DNA of 64,000 nucleotides from Patescibacteria group bacterium (GCA_041675145.1 JBAYUK010000001.1:312283-376282), one strand, 5' to 3'; counted from the stretch's first letter, positions 36,213 to 61,847 are shown. Notes: a model not told the origin generated them from the sequence alone. Made by a program: numbers and translations.

Positions 36213-36662
36213 ATGAAACCATACATCCCCGCTCTTGGTATTGCCGGTATTGTTCTTGTTGCCTTTACTACCTGGCATTTCATAAATCCTGAAACAGATG
36301 ACTTAACGCCAGATCCTGTACCAGCCCCTACTCAGACCAATGTGCAGCCAGAAGAAAAACCAGCACAAACCAATACAGCTACCATAGACACCAGCTCACA
36401 GCCACAGATTCCAACGAGCACACAAAAGACCTATACTATGGCAACTGTCTCTCAACACAACACAGCTACTGACTGCTGGATGGTTATTGACGGCGCAGTA
36501 TACGACCCGACTTCTTTTATCCCGCAACATCCAGGCGGAGACCAAATTGTGCTCGGTTGTGGCAAGGATGCTACGAGTTTAGTAACGGGACAACGAAAGC
36601 ACATGAAGCCCCAGGCTCAGGCTATCTTTGATGCATATAAAATAGGGACACTTGCTCAATAA
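36213..36662 (+). CDS. membrane-anchored cytochrome b5-like heme-binding domain protein
   Basis: N-terminal TM and a Pro/Thr/Gln linker. The C-terminal cyt-b5 motif reads DCWMVIDGAVYDPTSFIPQHPGGDQIV. Confidence 0.65.
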   Translation: MKPYIPALGIAGIVLVAFTTWHFINPETDDLTPDPVPAPTQTNVQPEEKPAQTNTATIDTSSQPQIPTSTQKTYTMATVSQHNTATDCWMVIDGAVYDPTSFIPQHPGGDQIVLGCGKDATSLVTGQRKHMKPQAQAIFDAYKIGTLAQ

Positions 36663-36663
36663 C

Positions 36664-37968
36664 ATGAACCTTCGCCCACTCTTCTACGCACTACTGATAG
36701 CAAACCTAGGTACAACCCTCTTCTTGTGGTGGACACATTCTTCGTTCTTTATGACAAGTGGCAACACTGGCCAGATTTTAATTGGCCTTGGACGACTCAT
36801 GGGACTACTGGCTGAGCTGGGAATCCTTGTTCAACTCGTCTTGATTGGACGCATTAGAGTAGTCGAACAAGAGTATGGCTTTGATATGTTAAACCGCCTA
36901 CACCGAGTACTCGGCTTCTACCTGCTTGCAGCACTCATTACCCACCCACTTTTCTTGGTTACAGGATACAGTATCGTAAACCACACTGCTTTTGCCCCGC
37001 AACTCGTAACTTTTTTTACGAGCTGGGAAGACGTATTTGCTGCCTTTCTTGGTCTTTGTGTACTCCTTATTGCAATCAGCACTTCAGTAGCTATTGTTCG
37101 ACGCAAGCTCCGGTATGAGACCTGGTACTTTATACACTTCTTAATCTACCTAGCCATTGCACTGTTCTTCAGTCACCAAGTAAAGAGCGGTGATCTTACT
37201 ACCGGGTCTGCCATGTACTACTGGTACGCAGTCAACTTCACTATCTTCGGTCTTGTTCTTGTCTACCGGTTTATGCGTCCACTCTATCTGCTCTGGGTTC
37301 ACCGTTTTGAAGTTGAGCGTATCGTACAGGAAAGTGCGGTAGTCACTTCTGTATATATTACGGGACGCAACCTTGCTCGTTTTATAATTCAGCCTGGACA
37401 GTTTGCTCACATTAGCTTTTTAGCTCGAGATACATGGTACACTCATCCATTTTCTTTTTCTCAGGTTAATAACGGCAAGAACCTTCGTCTCTCTATTAAG
37501 GCTCTGGGAGACTTCACCGCACAAATAGCACGTATTACGCCCGGCACTCCGGTACTGATCGACGGGCCGTTTGGTGTCTTTACGCAGAAAAAAAATGTGA
37601 CCGGTAAATACCTCTTTATTGCCGGAGGTATTGGCATTACACCAATTCGCGCCCTTGCAGAATCACTGTCCTTAAAGAACGCAGACCAAAGACTCTTATA
37701 TAGCATTCGCAACATGGACGAGCTCGTCTTTGAAGAAGAACTTAAGCAGCTCAACATACCCACAAGCATCATAACCTCACAGTCTCATGAGAACGGATAT
37801 GAACATGGACATATTGATACAGAAAAAATCCAGCGTCTCGCGCCGGACTTTATAACACGAGATATCTATGTCTGTGGTCCACCTACTATGATTGAGACGG
37901 TTTGCACAGCTCTTGCTACCCTAGGAGTACCCAAAAACCAGATTCACTACGAGCGATTTAGTTACTAG
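36664..37968 (+). CDS. NOX/ferric-reductase family flavocytochrome (FRD TM domain + FAD-binding + NAD(P)-binding)
   Basis: Bis-His TM helices with 13-residue spacing (HFLIYLAIALFFSH). HPFSF is the FAD motif. GGIGITP and a CGP motif mark the NAD(P) domain. Start taken at the ATG right after the cyt-b5 stop. Confidence 0.75.
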   Translation: MNLRPLFYALLIANLGTTLFLWWTHSSFFMTSGNTGQILIGLGRLMGLLAELGILVQLVLIGRIRVVEQEYGFDMLNRLHRVLGFYLLAALITHPLFLVTGYSIVNHTAFAPQLVTFFTSWEDVFAAFLGLCVLLIAISTSVAIVRRKLRYETWYFIHFLIYLAIALFFSHQVKSGDLTTGSAMYYWYAVNFTIFGLVLVYRFMRPLYLLWVHRFEVERIVQESAVVTSVYITGRNLARFIIQPGQFAHISFLARDTWYTHPFSFSQVNNGKNLRLSIKALGDFTAQIARITPGTPVLIDGPFGVFTQKKNVTGKYLFIAGGIGITPIRALAESLSLKNADQRLLYSIRNMDELVFEEELKQLNIPTSIITSQSHENGYEHGHIDTEKIQRLAPDFITRDIYVCGPPTMIETVCTALATLGVPKNQIHYERFSY

Positions 37969-38305
37969 TCTTCTCGTTTTTTTTACGCTTTGATCGCATA
38001 CTCACTTCATATGACTCCTCGAGTAGTTCGAGGATTTTTTCATGCTCCTGGATAGTCTTGCCTGAAACCAACCAATAACTCATAGCATACGGTTTGCCGC
38101 CGTGTCCTTGGTATGTAAAAGGGGTGCTTTTCATCTTTTCGTATCGTTCCCTGTTTGTACTATCTACCTTCAAGTACAGCTGGCTATCGACTATGATTCC
38201 GCAGATTACCCCACGCAGATACACCCCATATCCACCAAACATGGCTTTAGTTGTGATCTCTGGATGAAGCGCCTGAATAGCTATAACAAACTTCCCTACA
38301 GCCAT
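37958..38305 (-). CDS. TfoX N-terminal domain-containing protein
   Basis: KAMFGGYGVYLRGVICGIIVDSQLYLKVD...YAMSYWLV follows the TfoX_N pattern. Confidence 0.5.
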   Translation of the reverse strand: MAVGKFVIAIQALHPEITTKAMFGGYGVYLRGVICGIIVDSQLYLKVDSTNRERYEKMKSTPFTYQGHGGKPYAMSYWLVSGKTIQEHEKILELLEESYEVSMRSKRKKNEKTSN

Positions 38306-38853
38306 AAGAGCATTATTCCTGCCATCACCGTCATGAGTAAGTCTTCGAGGAGCGTAACGGTGGTCATGGGTACATTAATCTTAGTACCCAGACAGGCGCA
38401 GCGGAACGGTTTTTTAGATTGGAGAGCAAGCAACACCCCGACACTAGAGATACCCATCACGAGAAATGTCACCCAGTCGGTTACTCGTGGCATTAAGTGA
38501 AAAAGGTAGTTTACTCCTAGCCATAGTTCAATGAAGGGATAAAAGAACCCATAGCCGGATACTTTTTTAGCAACTACATCGTACGTTGCGTACGCTTGGG
38601 CAAACCCCTTCAGGTCGAGTAACTTAAATACCGAGAAGGTGACAAAAAATACCCCCATGAAAATACGAAAAACGATTAACGCGTCCCATAGGCCGGTAAC
38701 GGCTGACCATATAAGCGTTATGAGTACCACTCCGCCGAGAATGGCAAGGAGCGGGGTAATACTTGGTTTTGCTTTCATCATCTGTTCGTGTTCAAACTTA
38801 TTCATTTCTTCCATGGTATATATATTACTAGTATTAATGTGCAAAGAAAGCAA
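38296..38853 (-). CDS. DoxX/MauE-like polytopic membrane protein
   Basis: Four TM segments and a C-terminal Cys pair (RCACLG). Overlaps both flanking genes, consistent with an operon. Family call is tentative. Confidence 0.4.
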   Translation of the reverse strand: MLSLHINTSNIYTMEEMNKFEHEQMMKAKPSITPLLAILGGVVLITLIWSAVTGLWDALIVFRIFMGVFFVTFSVFKLLDLKGFAQAYATYDVVAKKVSGYGFFYPFIELWLGVNYLFHLMPRVTDWVTFLVMGISSVGVLLALQSKKPFRCACLGTKINVPMTTVTLLEDLLMTVMAGIMLLWL

Positions 38854-41080
38854 GGTAGCCTAATGCAAGATACGACAAAATAACAACTGCACCCAAAAGC
38901 CCTCCCCAGGTCATAAACTTCTTCCTTCCAGCAATCCTGATCCACCAGTATAACTGACCTACAACTACTAATGTTGCTACAGTGAAGAGTAGATATATAG
39001 GCAGAGTGTGTCTGAGTAACGGATTAACTAGTACAAAGTGAAAAATAGCCGACATCCAGGCAAAGTAGGCTACTCGGTGTATGAGCTTCCAGCGCGGGTA
39101 GGTAAGCTTTGCGACCATCCAATCAGATGAGGTAAGTGCCATTATCATAAAGCCCGTTAATGCTAAGGAGCCGAATACGACCGGGTTCTTAAGTGGATTC
39201 AGTGACCAGTAGACTGTTGCGAAATCCCACCCATACATCAATGCGTAGACAGATAATGCATGTAGGGTAATAAAAAGCACCCCTACTACTCCTGTATAGC
39301 GACGCACTCGCCAGTGGTCAGCCAGTGCTGGGATGAACTTGAACACAATACTCATCAGCAATGCCGCCCCAATCATGGTGGCGCCAGTTAAGGCGAATGA
39401 ACGGATAAGGGAGGACGCAAGGTTTCCCGGTACTAGATAAAAGAACTGGAGACAAAACTGCACTGCCCAAAACAAGATACCAGCACCAAGAACTGTTAAA
39501 ATAAGTTTTGTGTAGCGTACTGGTGGAGCAGGTAGGTTACTTGGACTGTTATTAACTTCCCCATCCTCTATGCCCACCTCAATACTATCCCCTACTATTC
39601 GTACTGTATATATTTTTTGAGAATATTTGGCAGGCCCTGTAACTACTTTACCGTCTGTGATACTGAACTTTGATCCATGCCACGGACAGGTAATAGTTTT
39701 ACCGTCAAAATCTCCGTCACACAACGGTCCACCCATATGTGAACAGGCATTATCCATAGCCACATATATATTGTCTACTGTGAATAAGGCGAGCTTTTTA
39801 TCTCCTACCGTGATACACCTCTTATTTTCCTTAGTGAACTCAGATACCTTAGCCACTGCCACCCAATGTGTTCCTTTACTACTCGTACTAGAGTTCATAG
39901 TAGTTGTGTTATGTGAAATTGAAATATTATTTCTTTGAGGGTTCAAGATACTAGATACTTTACTGTTCTTGCCTGCTATTAAATAAGCAATGGTCTTGCC
40001 TGCAAGAGCGCTAAAGACGAGCCCCTGACCACCAAAACCAGTAATAACGTGTACATTAGGCACATGAGGATGAGTAAAAACATAGGGCACCTCATCAGGA
40101 GTAACATACAAGCTACCAGACCAAAAATTGGTAATAGCAGTATACCCAGGCACGTGGGCATCTAAATACGGGGTTAGTGTAGTGTAGGCATCCTGGGACT
40201 TGATCTTATCGTACGAAATATCTGCCCCGCCCAGGATCAAGGTATGGGGATTTATCATTCTGAAATAAAAGTATGGGTGATCTACATCCCAGTACTGCTC
40301 AGCACCGATCGGCTGTGTATGGTACTGTGCTGCCAGCACATATGTGAGACGCGGGACAACCAGACTTGAAAGCTCTGGAAACAACGTATCGTCTGGCTTA
40401 CCAGTTGCTACCACTATATGCTTTGCCACTACCTTCCCTTTAGCTGTTCTGACTTCATTACCAGCAACAGATACTACCCCGGACTCTTCAAAGAGTAACA
40501 CACCTTTCTTAGCTAGAAGACTCGCTAGTGCGGATATAAACTTACGAGGATGAAATCTACCCTCTTTGTCATACCGGATAGCTGAGGCAAAAACATCCCC
40601 GTTCTTACCTTCAACCAAAGAAGTGTTCTTATCTACGGTACGCACAAGATCCCACTCCTTCAAGAGACCAGGGTCCTTTTTAGTATATGAGATCCAGTAG
40701 GACTGGTTAGACAGAAAGTCGCAGCGTATTTTGTTATCCGCTATTATCTTAAAGAGTTCTTTCTGAGCCCCATACAGTTCGAGAGCAAGATCAGTAACAA
40801 ACTTCTCTCCATGAAGCTTCTTTAAAGCAATAAGAGAGGTATCTAGTGGACGGGTCAAAAATCCAGTGGTTGCCCCCGTATCTCCGTTGGCAAGAAGGCC
40901 TTTTTCCAGCAATACCACCGAGAACCCTGACTCAACTAAATACCAGGCGCTCATAAGGCCCACTATACCGCCACCGATCACTACCACATCAGCAGCAACC
41001 TCTTTCTTAAGTGGTCTATAGATGAGATCATCCGGTTCGTCCTCATACCAGACCGGAAGAGTATTGATGTCTTGTTGCAT
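38834..41080 (-). CDS. three-domain fusion: FAD-dependent oxidoreductase (DAO-like) + Rieske [2Fe-2S] + C-terminal 6-TM ferric-reductase-like heme domain
   Basis: VVVIGGGIVGLMSAWYL is the FAD Rossmann fold. CSHMGGPL...CPWHGSKF is the Rieske CxH...CxxH. The C-terminal 6 TM carry His pairs (LIHRVAYFAWMSAIFH). Confidence 0.7.
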   Translation of the reverse strand: MQQDINTLPVWYEDEPDDLIYRPLKKEVAADVVVIGGGIVGLMSAWYLVESGFSVVLLEKGLLANGDTGATTGFLTRPLDTSLIALKKLHGEKFVTDLALELYGAQKELFKIIADNKIRCDFLSNQSYWISYTKKDPGLLKEWDLVRTVDKNTSLVEGKNGDVFASAIRYDKEGRFHPRKFISALASLLAKKGVLLFEESGVVSVAGNEVRTAKGKVVAKHIVVATGKPDDTLFPELSSLVVPRLTYVLAAQYHTQPIGAEQYWDVDHPYFYFRMINPHTLILGGADISYDKIKSQDAYTTLTPYLDAHVPGYTAITNFWSGSLYVTPDEVPYVFTHPHVPNVHVITGFGGQGLVFSALAGKTIAYLIAGKNSKVSSILNPQRNNISISHNTTTMNSSTSSKGTHWVAVAKVSEFTKENKRCITVGDKKLALFTVDNIYVAMDNACSHMGGPLCDGDFDGKTITCPWHGSKFSITDGKVVTGPAKYSQKIYTVRIVGDSIEVGIEDGEVNNSPSNLPAPPVRYTKLILTVLGAGILFWAVQFCLQFFYLVPGNLASSLIRSFALTGATMIGAALLMSIVFKFIPALADHWRVRRYTGVVGVLFITLHALSVYALMYGWDFATVYWSLNPLKNPVVFGSLALTGFMIMALTSSDWMVAKLTYPRWKLIHRVAYFAWMSAIFHFVLVNPLLRHTLPIYLLFTVATLVVVGQLYWWIRIAGRKKFMTWGGLLGAVVILSYLALGYLAFFAH

Positions 41081-41107
41081 ACATATATTGTATCACAAAT
41101 AAAAGAG

Positions 41108-41140
41108 CGGCTCCGTAGAGCCGCTCTAGTTCATTGTCTT
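41108..41140 (-). terminator. rho-independent terminator downstream of the purC/purE fusion
   Basis: AGAGCGGCTC-cgta-GAGCCGCTCT. The minus strand carries a TTTTATTT tail. Confidence 0.65.
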
Positions 41141-41153
41141 GAAAAGCCAATGT

Positions 41154-42518
41154 TCACAATAATGTGAAGTTGGACTGAGTTTGTTCTTGAATCTGCCGTG
41201 CATAGGCATAGGCCACAGGGTTAGACCGTCCCAGGATTTGTAGCGCATGAAGCATCGCATTGCCTGGATCCAAAATGGTCGATGCTGGAGTCATGCTGGG
41301 GGTTCTAAGAGATGACCACACATCCTCCGGCCTTTTTTCCCAGCCATTGGGCACTGAGATAACAGGAACAGAGCAGTTAGCAGAGAGGGTTGGTCCAGCG
41401 CCGTTTGATCTTCCAATAAAGGCGATGACAACCGTCTCTGGATTCCGTTGAAGAATCTTGTTCAGTCCAAAAGTGCCGTGGACAGGAGACTTATGCATGG
41501 ATTTGGTCAACACTGCCATCTCTACCCAATCCGTTCTTTCGCAGTACGGATTTGTAGTTAGACGCTCAAATGCCAAACCCAGATCGTCAATGTTATCCTT
41601 TTCGCTTCCGGTCCAAATAAGGACATGCGACTTTGGAATGCGCCAAGACTTCACTTCATCAAGCGTCCAGCGATACAGCTCGAGCATTTCATCCAGTGCT
41701 CCGCCTTCGCGGTAGAACTGTTTGTCTCGATACTTCCCTTCTGAATCGGTCACTCGCCAGTTGTCGGCCGTGACTTCATCAGCAAGAAGGAGCCTTCCAT
41801 CTTCAGTGACCCCGAATTCAAGCTTGAAGTCGGCCTTATTAAAACCACGCAGTTGCCACGCGCGTTCAAAGATGAAGAAGATGAGCCTCGTCCAGTAGTC
41901 GATCTCACACCAGTGCTCTGCTGCATGTTTGGGCAACCAGTTATTTCTCAGGTCGGCTGGAATTTTCTTTTTCAGATACCAGGGTTGCTTGGGCTCGAAG
42001 ATTTCCATACTCTCAAGCATGATACTGGAGTGATCCAGCTGCCAGAAAGGTAAATCTCCAACATGCCCAGTGCTCCAGTGAGGCACAATGAGAGGGTCGT
42101 CACAAGGCAGGTCGATCTCTCCCCACTTCTTGCCGGTGGTTTTCAAAAAGAACTCCACGAGAAGCTGGGGGAACGCCTGACCTTTTTCCAGATGCGGCAT
42201 GCGCTGCAAGTAGCTGCCATGCGCGCTGCGCCGAGCAACCACTTCGAGCTCAATCATGTCTACCTTCTTCATCACCATCTCGTTGGGGTTATCCCCTGGT
42301 CGAAGGTAGGCGGTCGGAACCCCGGCGGCATTAAGCAATTCGAAAATTGCAATAGAAGCCTGACAGGCAAGGGCTCCTTTTCCCTTCAGAGCATCTTTCT
42401 TCGCTCCATCACCTGCAGTGATAGCGTCTTTGAAGCGCAACAGCACTTCACCGTTTCCGATATCGAAGACCTGTTTGGTCTTGCCCTCGGTGAGTAATTG
42501 TTCAGGTCCAAGTTTCAT
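41154..42518 (-). CDS. purC/purE: bifunctional SAICAR synthetase + AIR carboxylase (PurC-PurE fusion, eukaryotic PAICS-like)
   Basis: The N-terminal LTEGKTKQVFDIGNGEVLLRFKDAITAGDG... is SAICAR synthetase. The C-terminal VIAFIGRSNGAGPTLSANCSVPVISVP is a PurE-type AIR carboxylase. Confidence 0.75.
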   Translation of the reverse strand: MKLGPEQLLTEGKTKQVFDIGNGEVLLRFKDAITAGDGAKKDALKGKGALACQASIAIFELLNAAGVPTAYLRPGDNPNEMVMKKVDMIELEVVARRSAHGSYLQRMPHLEKGQAFPQLLVEFFLKTTGKKWGEIDLPCDDPLIVPHWSTGHVGDLPFWQLDHSSIMLESMEIFEPKQPWYLKKKIPADLRNNWLPKHAAEHWCEIDYWTRLIFFIFERAWQLRGFNKADFKLEFGVTEDGRLLLADEVTADNWRVTDSEGKYRDKQFYREGGALDEMLELYRWTLDEVKSWRIPKSHVLIWTGSEKDNIDDLGLAFERLTTNPYCERTDWVEMAVLTKSMHKSPVHGTFGLNKILQRNPETVVIAFIGRSNGAGPTLSANCSVPVISVPNGWEKRPEDVWSSLRTPSMTPASTILDPGNAMLHALQILGRSNPVAYAYARQIQEQTQSNFTLL

Positions 42519-60689: not shown

Positions 60690-60866
60690 GCTTGCCTAAC
60701 CCTCATCTCTTGGTGAGGTATGGTGAATAAATCCGGATATAGGGGAGAGAACTCTCCGTTTAAGGTGTTACCTATATCCGGTCTATGCTCGAAAGGGCAT
60801 AGGATAGTCGCAAGACTGTCGCATCTTAGCGGGGAGCTTTTTGCGTTTTAATACTAAATTATCACT
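60690..60866 (+). ncRNA. structured 5' leader (candidate cis-regulatory RNA) upstream of the thermonuclease gene
   Basis: Nested hairpins: CCTCA-N8-TGAGG, then CCGGATATAGG[GGAGAG-aa-CTCTCC]...CCTATATCCGG, then CTATGCTC-GAAA-GGGCATAG. No known riboswitch class recognised. Confidence 0.35.
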
Positions 60867-61847
60867 ATGCTTTTTGGCCTTTTTACACTCCTGTTTCTCG
60901 CTTCGTTCGTTCTGTTGATCGTTGGGCTTATCAACCCAAAGCCAGTCAGTAAGCTTTTTCGCAAAGAGTTCAGTCGTAAAACAATCGCTGGTTACTTCAG
61001 TGCGGCGGTGCTGGTTTTCTTTATCCTGAGCGGCGCTTCTGCTGGCCCTGTGCCAAAGAAAGCTGATCCACAGCAAGCAACTCAAGAAACAACTGAGCGG
61101 CCCGCCGCACAAGACGCCACTAGTCCTGACAACAATGAGGGCGTTGAGCCTGCTACGACCGCTGTGACAGCCAAAGAACAGCCGGACGCAAGTCAGCCTC
61201 TCTACGATGTCACTTCAGTCACTGACGGTGACACAATCAAAGTAAATATTGCCGGCAAGGTTGAATCAATTCGTCTGATTGGTCTTGATACCCCGGAGGT
61301 GGTCGATCCACGTAAACCAGTGCAATGCTTCGGCCAGGAAGCTTCAAAGCGTGCCAAGGACATCCTGACGGGCAAGAAGGTACGCCTGGAGGCTGACGCA
61401 GTGTCCGGTGAGCGAGACAAGTATAATCGCTTGCTCCGCTATGTGTGGCTTGAAGACGGCACATTGTTCAACAAACAGATGATTGCTGACGGTTACGCTT
61501 CTGAGTACACCTACCAGAGCCAGGTGTACAAGTATCAATCAGAGTTTAAAGAAGCCGAGAAACAGGCGCGCGATGGCCAGAAAGGGCTTTGGAATCCTAG
61601 TACGTGCAACGGCGACGCAACAAAGCCTGCTGTGACACCTGTGCCTGCGGTTACGCCTGCTCCTGCAGCTCAATCACCAACGCCAAAGCCTGCTCCTGCT
61701 CCAGCACCATCAGGATCAGTCGTTAAGAAGAGCAAGAGCAGTATCTGTCACGCTCCAGGCACGAAGTATTACGACCAAACGACCAACTTCACGCCATACA
61801 ATACTGTGGACGAGTGTCTGAACAGTGGCGGTAGGTTACCAAAATAG
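60867..61847 (+). CDS. membrane-anchored/secreted thermonuclease (staphylococcal nuclease, SNase fold) with a Pro/Ala-rich linker and a Cys-containing C-terminal domain
   Basis: DGDTIKV...IRLIGLDTPE...RYVWL...ADGYA are SNase motifs. About 58% GC. Confidence 0.8.
   Translation: MLFGLFTLLFLASFVLLIVGLINPKPVSKLFRKEFSRKTIAGYFSAAVLVFFILSGASAGPVPKKADPQQATQETTERPAAQDATSPDNNEGVEPATTAVTAKEQPDASQPLYDVTSVTDGDTIKVNIAGKVESIRLIGLDTPEVVDPRKPVQCFGQEASKRAKDILTGKKVRLEADAVSGERDKYNRLLRYVWLEDGTLFNKQMIADGYASEYTYQSQVYKYQSEFKEAEKQARDGQKGLWNPSTCNGDATKPAVTPVPAVTPAPAAQSPTPKPAPAPAPSGSVVKKSKSSICHAPGTKYYDQTTNFTPYNTVDECLNSGGRLPK

What the first reader, a model, noticed from the sequence alone, without database searches (positions are those of the whole stretch)
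37958..41080. Unusual triple fusion: FAD oxidoreductase + Rieske [2Fe-2S] + ferric-reductase-like heme TM domain, in an operon with DoxX-like and TfoX_N-like genes
The 748-aa protein combines a DAO-type FAD Rossmann domain, a Rieske centre (CSHMGGP...CPWHG) and a C-terminal 6-TM domain with His pairs as in MsrQ/FRD. The stop-start overlaps of 20 and 10 nt put it in one operon with a DoxX/MauE-like thiol-oxidoreductase-associated membrane protein and a standalone TfoX N-domain protein. I am not aware of a described DAO + Rieske + FRD architecture. Together with the adjacent b5/NOX pair, it forms a candidate novel trans-membrane electron-transfer system.
Basis: partly seen in the sequence, partly recalled or inferred. 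Interest (0 to 1): 0.7.

Follow-up and report, generated by a model that had tools for sequence, protein, structure and literature searches.

The report
Flavin–Rieske–haem membrane electron conduit
A single 748-residue protein of an ultra-small (Patescibacteria) bacterium strings together a flavin dehydrogenase, an iron-sulfur domain and an MsrQ/STEAP-type haem membrane domain, apparently to carry electrons from the cell interior to the outside; the design is real, rare, undescribed, and shared by ultra-small bacteria and archaea thought to lack electron-transport chains.

Summary
Window 38834-41080 (-) is one uninterrupted 748-aa ORF with DAO (FAD), Rieske [2Fe-2S] and a Ferric_reduct-type membrane domain. 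[quoted passage not shown]

The membrane domain is not a bis-haem NOX wire. It has seven helices and the MsrQ/STEAP signature: Arg-Arg where the inner haem ligand would be (the FMN-binding pair of E. coli MsrQ), one His in TM3 and two in TM5. That predicts one outer b haem plus an inner flavin pocket. The best fold matches are STEAP4 and STEAP1.

Helix 7 puts the C-terminus outside. There, a third of the orthologues carry or are followed by a DM13 domain.

The claimed partners are local only. MauE-like and TfoX_N genes occur in 0 of 72 other loci. The cyt-b5/NOX pair is a separate, very common CPR module. The "20-nt overlap" depends on choosing a TTG start.

Recurrent copper genes next to family members suggest a cupric-reductase or cupredoxin-reducing role. 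These include CopA/CsoR, CopC-CopD, cupredoxins and a CxC/Met-rich MauE subfamily fused to HMA/YHS. This role is inferred, not shown.

Verdict: a new variant of a known kind; interest about 0.6.

The parts
38834..41080 (-). 748-aa DAO-Rieske-FRD7 fusion gene
   Evidence: One ORF. The identical product is found in three assemblies. Orthologues with 35-43% identity cover 97-100% of its length.
39980..40990 (-). DAO-type FAD dehydrogenase/oxidase domain (residues 31-367), cytoplasmic
   Evidence: Pfam DAO, E 5e-49. The GxGxxG residues G36/G38/G41 are invariant. Foldseek matches glycine oxidase, L-amino acid deaminase and sarcosine oxidase with target-normalised TM-scores of 0.65-0.79. The best PDB sequence hit is Proteus L-amino acid deaminase, E 2.4e-11.
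39608..39868 (-). Rieske [2Fe-2S] domain (residues 405-491), ferredoxin/NirD-like class
   Evidence: Pfam Rieske, E 1e-19. The best NCBIfam matches are the dioxygenase ferredoxins AndAb and HcaC and NirD, not PetC. C446, H448, C465 and H468 are invariant.
38840..39520 (-). Seven-helix MsrQ/STEAP-type ferric-reductase domain ('FRD7', residues 521-747)
41104..41127 (-). Intrinsic-terminator-like hairpin ending the upstream purC-purE gene
   Evidence: 10-bp stem with 7 GC pairs and a T tail.
41087..41095 (-). Extended -10-like TGATACAAT, 6 nt before the ATG (possible leaderless start)
   Evidence: Read directly from the sequence. The consensus scan did not list it because no -35 element is present. 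This is an inference only.
38296..38814 (-). MauE-like membrane protein (172 aa from the ATG), CxC- and Met-rich
   Evidence: Pfam MauE, E 3.4e-14. The closest homologues (45-57% identity) are HMA-MauE or MauE-YHS fusions. The CACLG motif and several Met residues are invariant. One homologue lies in a cluster with a P-type ATPase and a multicopper oxidase.
37958..38305 (-). Stand-alone TfoX_N-domain protein (115 aa); its start overlaps the MauE-like stop by 10 nt
   Evidence: Pfam TfoX_N, E 1.6e-22. It was not found near any other FRD7 gene.
36213..37968 (+). Neighbouring, independent module: membrane-anchored cyt b5 (36213-36662) plus a 4-His NOX/FRE-type reductase (36664-37968). It is convergent and is not part of the fusion's system.
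   Evidence: Pfam Cyt-b5; Ferric_reduct + FAD_binding_8 + NAD_binding_1. There are more than 1900 homologues. The b5-NOX pair is also found in a Vogelbacteria contig.

Best explanation
The gene encodes a one-polypeptide transmembrane electron conduit.

Proposed path:
1. A cytoplasmic DAO-type flavoenzyme oxidises a small substrate that is still unknown and reduces its FAD.
2. Electrons leave one at a time through the fused ferredoxin-class Rieske [2Fe-2S] domain.
3. They enter an MsrQ/STEAP-type membrane domain at a flavin-binding pocket on the inner face (R593/R594, S651, W664, H668).
4. They pass to a single b haem held by H607 and H681 near the outer face.
5. They are handed to an acceptor outside the cell.

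A seventh helix places the C-terminus outside. There, many orthologues carry a DM13 domain; this copy has none.

The most likely acceptor class is copper. It could be Cu(II) itself, as in STEAP metalloreductases, here possibly working with the co-transcribed CxC/Met-rich MauE-like membrane protein. In relatives it could be secreted cupredoxins.

What is shown: domain content, conserved ligands, fold, topology signals and distribution. What is inferred: cofactor occupancy, direction of flow, substrate and acceptor.
For: - **Domains and ligands:**
- **Independent links between the same domains:** split versions exist. L047 has DAO | FRD7 | DM13, and L035 has FRD7 | DM13 with a Rieske gene nearby. 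There are Rieske-FRD7 and FRD7-DM13 two-domain proteins. A second domain order, DAO-FRD(4 His)-Rieske, also exists.
- **MsrQ alignment:** R593/R594 align with R77/R78, H607 with H91, W664 with W147, H668 with H151 and H681 with H164. R77 and R78 are essential for FMN binding in MsrQ, H151 stabilises the flavin, and H91/H164 ligate the haem (PMC12525009). Replacement of the first TM3 His by Arg is the published YedZ/STEAP signature for a single, surface-proximal haem (PMC3591440). In wider family members H668 is often Gln, as in STEAP2-4.
- **Fold:** STEAP4, STEAP2 and STEAP1 rank above the NOX transmembrane domains.
- **Topology:** there is no signal peptide, seven helices are predicted, and K+R count is 14 inside against 2 outside. 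DM13 follows helix 7 in 6 fused cases and 2 adjacent cases out of 23.
- **DAO analogy:** the best solved relative by sequence is Proteus L-amino acid deaminase, a flavoenzyme thought to pass electrons to a membrane cytochrome b or the electron-transport chain rather than to O2 (PMC5651824).
- **Copper neighbours:** CopA/HMA/HMA-DsbD_2/CsoR next to P0004. A CopC-CopD fusion 16 nt from the L018 gene. A type-1 cupredoxin lipoprotein 82 nt upstream of P0018. Secreted cupredoxins next to or near FRD7 in L028, L036, L032 and L012. The MauE subfamily is fused to HMA/YHS and sits in a multicopper-oxidase cluster.
Against: - There is no experimental datum for any family member.
- The DAO substrate cannot be assigned. 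All NCBIfam equivalog scores are far below their cut-offs. ThiO's carboxylate-binding Arg302 aligns with Leu324.
- The inter-domain geometry is uncertain. The Rieske-to-pocket distance is therefore untested.
- Gene neighbourhoods are mostly not conserved. Copper genes lie within 8 kb in only about 9 of roughly 66 genomes, and no background rate was computed.
- Other neighbours point elsewhere: cytoplasmic MsrA/MsrB in 8 loci and a Trx-like gene in 10 DPANN loci.
- CPR organisms are generally thought unable to make haem (general knowledge, not tested here).
- Moving electrons outward dissipates membrane potential rather than building it, so the physiological benefit is unclear.
Confidence: 0.62

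Rival explanations
1. MsrQ-like role in envelope protein repair or oxidative-stress defence. The conduit would feed an extracytoplasmic reductase, as MsrQ feeds MsrP, or belong to an oxidant-defence regulon. Copper would not be involved.
For: The MsrQ cofactor residues are conserved. MsrA or MsrB genes lie within 5 kb in 8 of 63 loci, three of them directly adjacent on the same strand. A thioredoxin-fold gene is a divergent neighbour in 10 DPANN loci.
Against: The neighbouring MsrA/MsrB proteins have no signal peptide or anchor, so they could not receive electrons from an outer haem. No molybdoenzyme or other recurrent exported reductase turned up in the neighbour clustering. MsrP was not searched for with its own profile.
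Confidence: 0.15
2. Oxygen-reducing NOX-like enzyme. The outer haem would reduce O2 to superoxide or scavenge O2, using a cytoplasmic substrate instead of NAD(P)H.
Against: The NOX-defining four His and the FNR-type dehydrogenase domain are absent. The signature is that of the single-haem STEAP/YedZ group. The genome already has a canonical 4-His NOX-like protein next door.
Confidence: 0.1
3. One reading: one integrated system made of the fusion, the MauE/DoxX-like protein, the TfoX_N protein and the adjacent cyt-b5/NOX pair.
For: The genes are physically adjacent, and the three minus-strand genes are tightly spaced. An exported cyt b5 could in principle accept electrons from any FRD haem. One Micrarchaeota locus (L060) has an exported b5 1.5 kb from a stand-alone FRD7.
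Against: MauE-like and TfoX_N genes occur in 0 of 72 other loci, NOX-like in 0, and b5 in 1. The b5/NOX pair is on the other strand. It recurs on its own in other CPR bacteria, and the NOX-like protein alone has more than 1900 homologues.
Confidence: 0.08
4. Reverse flow. Electrons from an external donor (host surface, reduced metal, cupredoxin) would enter through the haem and Rieske centre to reduce a cytoplasmic substrate at the FAD.
For: No tool result argues for it. It is listed only because nothing found here fixes the direction, and because an episymbiont could draw on external reductants (general reasoning).
Against: All characterised FRD proteins (NOX, FRE, STEAP, MsrQ) move electrons outward (PMC3591440, PMC12525009). 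Characterised DAO-family enzymes are substrate oxidisers.
Confidence: 0.04
5. Assembly or frameshift artefact joining separate genes.
For: No tool result supports it. The two inter-domain linkers are poorly modelled.
Against: The identical ORF is found in three assemblies. The same uninterrupted stop-to-stop ORF occurs in about 23 genomes from two domains of life.
Confidence: 0.01

Closest known systems
E. coli MsrQ (YedZ), the flavocytochrome b that feeds periplasmic MsrP
   Same: Homologous membrane core (hhalign probability 95.8%). It shares the Arg-Arg FMN pair, the Ser, the Trp-x3-His and the two haem His at the same spacing. The predicted inside-to-outside electron path is the same.
   Different: MsrQ is a stand-alone 211-aa protein reduced by a separate cytosolic flavin reductase, and it serves a molybdoenzyme. 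Here the donor (DAO + Rieske) is fused to the membrane core, a seventh transmembrane helix is added, and no MsrP-like partner was seen.
STEAP1-4 metalloreductases (human)
   Different: The STEAP donor is an F420-type NADPH oxidoreductase domain with no Fe-S cluster. STEAPs have six helices with the C-terminus inside, and they are eukaryotic. Sequence identity is only 12-17%.
NOX / bacterial FRE 'long forms' (SpNOX, csNOX5, and the window's own 434-aa neighbour)
   Same: Same superfamily and fold. They follow the same logic of a dehydrogenase fused to a haem membrane domain.
   Different: NOX has four His (two haems) and a C-terminal FNR-type FAD/NAD(P)H domain. Both features were tested here and are absent from the 748-aa protein.
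Soluble DAO-Rieske proteins (e.g. B. subtilis YhfW)
   Same: Same N-terminal two-domain order. These are the nearest non-membrane relatives (23-30% identity, E-values from about 1e-41 to about 1e-15).
   Different: They are about 510 aa with no membrane domain. YhfW's function is unknown; it is induced in competent cells (PMC7317962).
Proteus L-amino acid deaminase
   Same: Best solved sequence relative of the DAO domain (E 2.4e-11). It is a DAO-fold flavoenzyme believed to pass electrons to a membrane cytochrome b or the electron-transport chain instead of O2 (PMC5651824).
   Different: It is a separate, Tat-anchored extracytoplasmic protein with no Rieske domain and no fused cytochrome.
Bacterial FRD modular extensions catalogued by Zhang et al. 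2013 (model M4: FMN + Rieske)
   Same: Shows that Rieske domains had already been seen attached to bacterial FRD cores as electron-transfer modules.
   Different: No DAO donor, no DM13 domain and no seventh helix are listed there. CPR and DPANN genomes were not available in 2013.
Eukaryotic DM13/DOMON and CYBDOM cell-surface redox proteins
   Same: An extracellular DM13 ('electron transfer DM13', PF10517) is attached to a transmembrane b-haem module in orthologues.
   Different: In eukaryotes DM13 accompanies DOMON/cyt b561, not an FRD core. The window's own protein lacks DM13.

Membership tests
Ferric reductase domain (FRD) superfamily, Pfam PF01794 | Profile score above the curated cut-off | tested here: met
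   38.1 bits against a cut-off of 28, E 1.8e-9, when the C-terminal 240 aa are scanned alone. The precomputed hit is present in 12 of 14 orthologues.
Ferric reductase domain (FRD) superfamily, Pfam PF01794 | FRD fold (six-helix core with His on helices 3 and 5) | tested here: met
YedZ/MsrQ-STEAP subgroup (single haem + flavin) | First canonical TM3 His replaced by a conserved Arg (Zhang et al. 2013) | tested here: met
   R593-R594 are invariant, 13-14 residues before H607.
YedZ/MsrQ-STEAP subgroup (single haem + flavin) | MsrQ flavin-pocket residues R77, R78, S135, W147, H151 and haem ligands H91, H164 | tested here: met
   They align with R593, R594, S651, W664, H668 and with H607, H681. Their roles are taken from PMC12525009.
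YedZ/MsrQ-STEAP subgroup (single haem + flavin) | Actual binding of one b haem and a flavin | not testable with these tools
   Requires spectroscopy of the purified protein.
MsrPQ system | Partner periplasmic molybdoenzyme MsrP encoded alongside | tested here: inconclusive
   No recurrent exported reductase was found among neighbours of 63 loci. No MsrP profile was run.
NADPH oxidase (NOX) / long-form FRE | Four haem-ligating His (two per helix) | tested here: not met
   Only three invariant His are present. The inner TM3 position is Arg.
NADPH oxidase (NOX) / long-form FRE | C-terminal FNR-type FAD_binding_8 / NAD_binding domain | tested here: not met
   Absent from the 748-aa protein but present in the neighbouring 434-aa protein.
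DAO family (PF01266) FAD-dependent oxidoreductases | Full-length profile match and GxGxxG dinucleotide motif | tested here: met
   E 5e-49, covering profile positions 1-353 of 353. G36, G38 and G41 are invariant.
Specific DAO enzymes (ThiO, DadA, AmaA, SoxB, MnmC ...) | Score above the NCBIfam equivalog cut-off | tested here: not met
   The best is AmaA at 77 bits against 600, then ThiO at 75 bits against 251. ThiO Arg302 aligns with Leu324.
Rieske [2Fe-2S] domain | CxH ... CxxH ligand set and profile match | tested here: met
   C446, H448, C465 and H468 are invariant. Pfam E 1e-19.
MauE/DoxX membrane proteins (second gene) | Pfam MauE above the cut-off | tested here: met
   53.7 bits against a cut-off of 27. 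The subfamily has an invariant CACLG motif and N-terminal HMA or YHS domains in its homologues.
Conserved operon fusion + MauE + TfoX_N (+ b5/NOX) | Co-occurrence in related genomes | tested here: not met
   MauE in 0 of 72, TfoX_N in 0 of 72, NOX-like in 0 of 72 and b5 in 1 of 72 loci, within ±8 kb. The search used phmmer with single sequences, so very distant homologues could be missed.

The most novel reading that the evidence does not exclude
[quoted passage not shown] This would be a minimal, quinone-free, single-protein chain. It would let organisms regarded as lacking electron-transport chains move cytoplasmic reducing equivalents onto exported one-electron carriers (DM13, cupredoxin, cyt b5), and through them to copper, to orphan copper enzymes, or to the host surface. 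It would also give the first functional context for the enigmatic DM13 domain.
Probability: 0.3. Interest if true: 0.8.

Novelty: new variant of a known kind. Interest (0 to 1): 0.6.

Why it matters
CPR/Patescibacteria and DPANN make up a large share of microbial diversity and are described as lacking electron-transport chains (PMC7507113). This protein family is almost confined to these two groups. It wires a cytoplasmic flavoenzyme through an Fe-S centre to a transmembrane haem, so these cells do appear to have membrane redox hardware, and it has been overlooked because it is annotated only as 'FAD-dependent oxidoreductase'.

For the FRD/NOX/STEAP field, it adds a third kind of fused electron donor after the FNR-type domain in NOX and the F420-type domain in STEAP. 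It also provides a natural single-chain model containing all centres. The DM13-bearing orthologues offer a tractable way to find out what DM13 does. The copper-gene neighbours give a concrete, testable function.

Tried and rejected
- **PDB sequence search with the membrane domain:** found nothing even at E ≤ 10. Only profile and fold comparisons worked.
- **Fold search with the full-length model:** swamped by DAO-domain hits, so a separate membrane-domain model was made.
- **afdb50 library:** not available. I could not check whether the whole architecture exists in AlphaFold DB/UniProt.
- **Window partners in other loci:** a search of 72 related loci for MauE, TfoX_N, b5 and NOX-like genes gave no MauE, TfoX_N or NOX hits and one b5 hit. 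A conserved four- or five-gene system is rejected.
- **Neighbour clustering:** apart from DM13, it produced antisense-ORF artefacts, helicases and ABC ATPases, plus modest MsrA/MsrB and Trx-like signals. No exported reductase recurred.
- **Direct search for L001's copper proteins:** few extra loci were found. The copper link is a minority pattern.
- **Promoter scan:** nothing upstream of the gene. The extended -10 was read by eye.
- **Literature searches:** combining ferric reductase/STEAP/MsrQ/Rieske with CPR and DPANN taxa found no description of this architecture.
- **Bis-haem NOX reading and frameshift artefact:** both rejected on the evidence given above.

Full report
**1. What is in the sequence**

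Window 38834-41080 (-) is one 748-codon ORF. It is followed on the same strand by a MauE-like ORF and a TfoX_N ORF.

Pfam finds DAO at residues 31-367 (E 5e-49) and Rieske at 405-491 (E 1e-19). In the whole protein the membrane part stays below the reporting threshold. Scanned alone, the last 240 residues hit Ferric_reduct (PF01794) at 38.1 bits against a curated cut-off of 28. The second and third genes hit MauE (E 3.4e-14) and TfoX_N (E 1.6e-22).

The exact 748-aa product is on record from an NCBI Patescibacteria MAG (428-kb contig), an ENA assembly (377-kb contig) and a Logan assembly. The ORF is therefore not a one-off assembly product.

The upstream purC-purE gene ends in a strong hairpin with a T tail at 41127-41104. 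A TGATACAAT sequence sits 6 nt before the ATG. This suggests the gene has its own promoter and perhaps a leaderless transcript; that is an inference.

Gene callers start the MauE-like gene at ATG 38814, 19 nt after the stop of the fusion gene. The 10-nt MauE/TfoX_N overlap is real. No terminator-like site separates the three genes, so a local operon is plausible.

The cyt-b5 and NOX-like genes (36213-37968) lie on the other strand and converge on the TfoX_N gene, with an 11-nt overlap.

**2. The fusion is conserved, rare and taxonomically peculiar**

A search of 5.8 billion protein clusters returned 14 full-length relatives with 35-43% identity and 97-100% coverage. Five of them carry an additional C-terminal DM13 domain (PF10517). 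The much more common soluble DAO-Rieske proteins of about 510 aa follow at 23-30% identity.

An exhaustive HMMER search with the membrane domain alone found only 206 cluster representatives (E ≤ 1e-3) among 1.84 billion.

Scanning one genome per species (185,579 species) with the membrane-domain profile gave 73 loci. Almost all come from two groups. The first is Patescibacteria/CPR: Peribacteria, Saccharibacteria, Magasanikbacteria, Ryanbacteria, Microgenomates and Parcubacteria. The second is DPANN archaea: Woesearchaeota, Iainarchaeum/Diapherotrites, Aenigmatarchaeota and Micrarchaeota. A few TPA bins are labelled 'uncultured Gammaproteobacteria', but in a rough neighbour-joining tree they sit among Peribacteria and other Patescibacteria.

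I searched six-frame ORFs of all loci with HMMs built from the orthologue alignment.
- About 23 distinct genomes have the uninterrupted DAO-Rieske-FRD fusion. Four are archaeal (L052, L057, L058, L066).
- Many others have the membrane domain alone.
- Some have FRD-DM13 or Rieske-FRD two-domain proteins.
- Some have split arrangements. L047 has a divergent DAO gene, then FRD7, then DM13. L035 has FRD7, DM13, and a Rieske gene 1.3 kb away.
- P0017 and P0018 have a different order, DAO-FRD-Rieske, with a four-His FRD.

Repeated fusion of the same domain types in different orders and combinations is strong evidence that they work together.

**3. What kind of membrane domain it is**

In 15 orthologues the invariant residues of the membrane part are R593, R594, H607, T650, S651, D653, W664, K665, H668, R669, Y672 and H681.

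There is one His on helix 3 and two on helix 5, 13 residues apart. Arg-Arg occupies the position where NOX proteins have the inner helix-3 His. Zhang et al. (PMC3591440) define exactly this replacement as the signature of the YedZ/STEAP branch. They infer that only the surface-proximal haem is bound.

A profile comparison with E. coli MsrQ gives 95.8% probability. It aligns R593/R594 with R77/R78, H607 with H91, S651 with S135, W664 with W147, H668 with H151 and H681 with H164. In MsrQ, R77 and R78 are each essential for FMN binding, H151 stabilises the flavin, and H91/H164 ligate the haem (PMC12525009). In more distant members of the present family the H668 position is often Gln, as in STEAP2-4.

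The domain is therefore a member of the FRD superfamily of the MsrQ/STEAP type.

**4. Topology**

The protein has no signal peptide. Seven helices are predicted. Loops assigned to the inside carry 14 Lys+Arg and those assigned to the outside carry 2.

This places the DAO and Rieske domains in the cytoplasm, the Arg-Arg/His668 pocket at the inner face, the H607/H681 haem at the outer face and the C-terminus outside. The DM13 domain follows helix 7 in 6 fused and 2 adjacent cases out of about 23. This fits its known extracellular location in eukaryotes (Pfam description and Iyer et al. 2007, from my knowledge).

**5. The donor half**

The DAO domain is full length and has the GxGxxG motif. Its fold matches glycine oxidase, sarcosine oxidases, D-arginine dehydrogenase and L-amino acid deaminase. 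No NCBIfam equivalog comes near its cut-off.

The best solved relative by sequence is Proteus L-amino acid deaminase (E 2.4e-11). That enzyme is believed to hand electrons to a membrane cytochrome b or the respiratory chain rather than to O2 (PMC5651824), which makes it a useful functional analogy. ThiO's Arg302, which I recall as the carboxylate ligand, aligns with Leu324, so the substrate remains open.

The Rieske domain scores best against dioxygenase ferredoxins and NirD rather than against PetC. This places it with the ferredoxin-class Rieske domains. Their lower redox potential is general knowledge and was not tested here.

The full-length model is good within each domain but uncertain between domains: pTM 0.63, and both linkers have pLDDT below 50. 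I could not obtain coordinates. The step from the Rieske cluster to the inner pocket is therefore inferred.

**6. Neighbours**

Within ±8 kb of 72 other loci I found no MauE-like, no TfoX_N and no NOX-like gene, and a single exported cyt b5 (L060). The three homologue contigs I examined individually also lack them.

The NOX-like neighbour has all four His and an FNR-type domain. It has more than 1900 homologues, many from named CPR lineages. In a Vogelbacteria contig it again follows a cyt-b5 gene, with a shared stop/start. In another contig it sits near an Nramp gene. It is therefore an independent, common module that merely abuts the fusion operon here.

What does recur near family members, apart from DM13, is copper-related.
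- P0004 is convergent with a cluster of a CopA-type ATPase, a small HMA protein, an HMA-DsbD_2 protein and CsoR.
- The Saccharibacteria gene in L018 is 16 nt from a CopC-CopD fusion. CopC scores 66.9 bits; CopD is below its cut-off.
- P0018 is preceded, 82 nt upstream on the same strand, by a lipoprotein cupredoxin with a C-x2-H-x4-M site.
- Exported cupredoxins lie next to or near stand-alone FRD7 genes in L028, L036, L032 and L012.
- The closest homologues of the window's MauE-like protein (45-57% identity) carry an N-terminal HMA (GMTCxxC) or a YHS-type domain. The subfamily has an invariant CACLG motif and many invariant Met residues. One member sits between an AraC regulator and a multicopper oxidase, next to a P-type ATPase. 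The window copy has a Met/His-rich N-terminus (MEEMNKFEHEQMMK) instead of HMA.

This pattern covers about 9 of roughly 66 genomes, and I did not compute a background rate. I therefore treat copper as the leading hypothesis for the acceptor (about 0.35-0.4), not as a result.

Other hints point to oxidative-stress contexts. Cytoplasmic-type MsrA/MsrB genes occur in 8 of 63 loci, and a thioredoxin-fold gene is a divergent neighbour in 10 DPANN loci.

**7. Mechanism proposed**

A cytoplasmic substrate reduces FAD in the DAO domain. Single electrons then pass through the Rieske cluster to the flavin pocket of the membrane domain, and on to the outer b haem. They leave to an external acceptor, which could be Cu(II), a cupredoxin, DM13 in orthologues, or something else.

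The outward direction follows all characterised FRD proteins and the oxidative chemistry of DAO enzymes, but it is an inference. Such a path dissipates membrane potential rather than creating it. It therefore looks like a reductase service (metal handling, or supply of an exported redox protein) rather than respiration.

**8. Comparison with what is known, and novelty**

The parts are known. The FRD superfamily is known to be modular, with a Rieske+FMN extension already listed in 2013. Soluble DAO-Rieske proteins such as B. subtilis YhfW are widespread but uncharacterised.

What I found no description of:
- a DAO-Rieske donor fused to an MsrQ/STEAP-type core;
- the seventh helix with an external DM13 domain;
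- the near-restriction of this subfamily to CPR and DPANN.

Searches combining the relevant terms returned nothing relevant. The flavinylation survey of MsrQ-like systems does not mention DM13, CPR or Patescibacteria. A key paper on these lineages reports an ancestral absence of electron-transport chains and does not mention Rieske proteins. Public annotations read only 'FAD-dependent oxidoreductase' or 'DM13 domain-containing protein'.

I rate it a new variant of a known kind and of moderate-to-high interest (0.6). The architecture claim is solid. The function remains to be tested.

Noticed in passing
window 36213-37968 (+): A cyt-b5 protein with an N-terminal membrane anchor and a Pro/Thr/Gln-rich linker, so probably exported, is followed 1 nt later by a canonical 4-His NOX/FRE-type reductase (Ferric_reduct + FAD_binding_8 + NAD_binding_1). 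The same b5-NOX pair occurs in a Vogelbacteria contig (L086). The NOX-like protein has more than 1900 homologues, many in CPR lineages, and in L085 it lies near an Nramp gene. An NAD(P)H-to-exported-b5 chain in CPR may be worth its own study.
   Followed up: partly
L084 5001-7202 (P0018), and P0017: A second, independent arrangement of the same three domain types: DAO, then a four-His (bis-haem type) FRD, then a C-terminal Rieske domain. In L084 a lipoprotein type-1 cupredoxin gene lies 82 nt upstream on the same strand.
   Followed up: partly
window 38296-38814 (-); L081, L083: The MauE-like protein belongs to a subfamily with an invariant CACLG motif and many conserved Met residues. Its other members carry HMA or YHS metal-binding domains. 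In L081 the member sits with a P-type ATPase, an AraC regulator, DUF3347 and a multicopper oxidase. It looks like an undescribed copper-handling membrane protein.
   Followed up: partly
L018 8724-10682 (-): A CopC-CopD fusion protein, reminiscent of copper-uptake CopCD proteins such as B. subtilis YcnJ (from my knowledge), converges on the Saccharibacteria DAO-Rieske-FRD7 gene with a 16-nt gap.
   Followed up: partly
L009, L010, L015, L017, L035, L041, L047, L055; and 10 DPANN loci (L028, L036, L037, L039, L040, L042, L046, L049, L053, L056): Cytoplasmic-type MsrA or MsrB genes lie within 5 kb of FRD7 genes in 8 of 63 loci. A thioredoxin-fold (CNHC) gene is a divergent neighbour in 10 archaeal loci. 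This may indicate an oxidative-stress context. No background rate was computed.
   Followed up: partly
window 37958-38305 (-) and literature: A TfoX_N gene is translationally coupled downstream of the fusion operon. TfoX is the competence-regulator domain. Separately, B. subtilis YhfW, a soluble DAO-Rieske protein, is induced 52-fold in competent cells and is needed for full transformability (PMC7317962). This is probably coincidence, since TfoX_N is absent from all other loci.
   Followed up: no
window 41154-42518 (-): A single 454-aa protein combines SAICAR synthetase (PurC, matched in two stretches) with a PurE/AIR-carboxylase-like C-terminal half. It appears to be a PurC-PurE fusion with an insertion in PurC.
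   Followed up: no
window 60693-60820 (+): Rfam LOOT RNA (RF03000) at 79.6 bits against a gathering score of 46.4, full length. It lies just upstream of the ORF at 60867-61847.
   Followed up: no
L008, L009, L010, L021, L030, L041, L045: TPA metagenome bins titled 'uncultured Gammaproteobacteria bacterium' carry FRD7 genes that group with Peribacteria and other Patescibacteria in a rough tree. The record titles may be mislabelled.
   Followed up: no
L023, L028, L034, L036, L037, L039, L040, L042, L044, L046, L048, L049, L054 versus bacterial loci: In a neighbour-joining tree of the membrane domain, a block of Iainarchaeum/Diapherotrites sequences nests inside the bacterial clade. Triple fusions interleave with stand-alone forms. 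This suggests inter-domain transfer and repeated fusion and fission, but the tree is not robust.
   Followed up: partly
L017 5769-6320 (+): Immediately upstream of the Saccharibacteria fusion gene is a small protein with an N-terminal hydrophobic segment (probably membrane-anchored or exported). It matches DUF7282 (64 bits) and its role is unknown.
   Followed up: no
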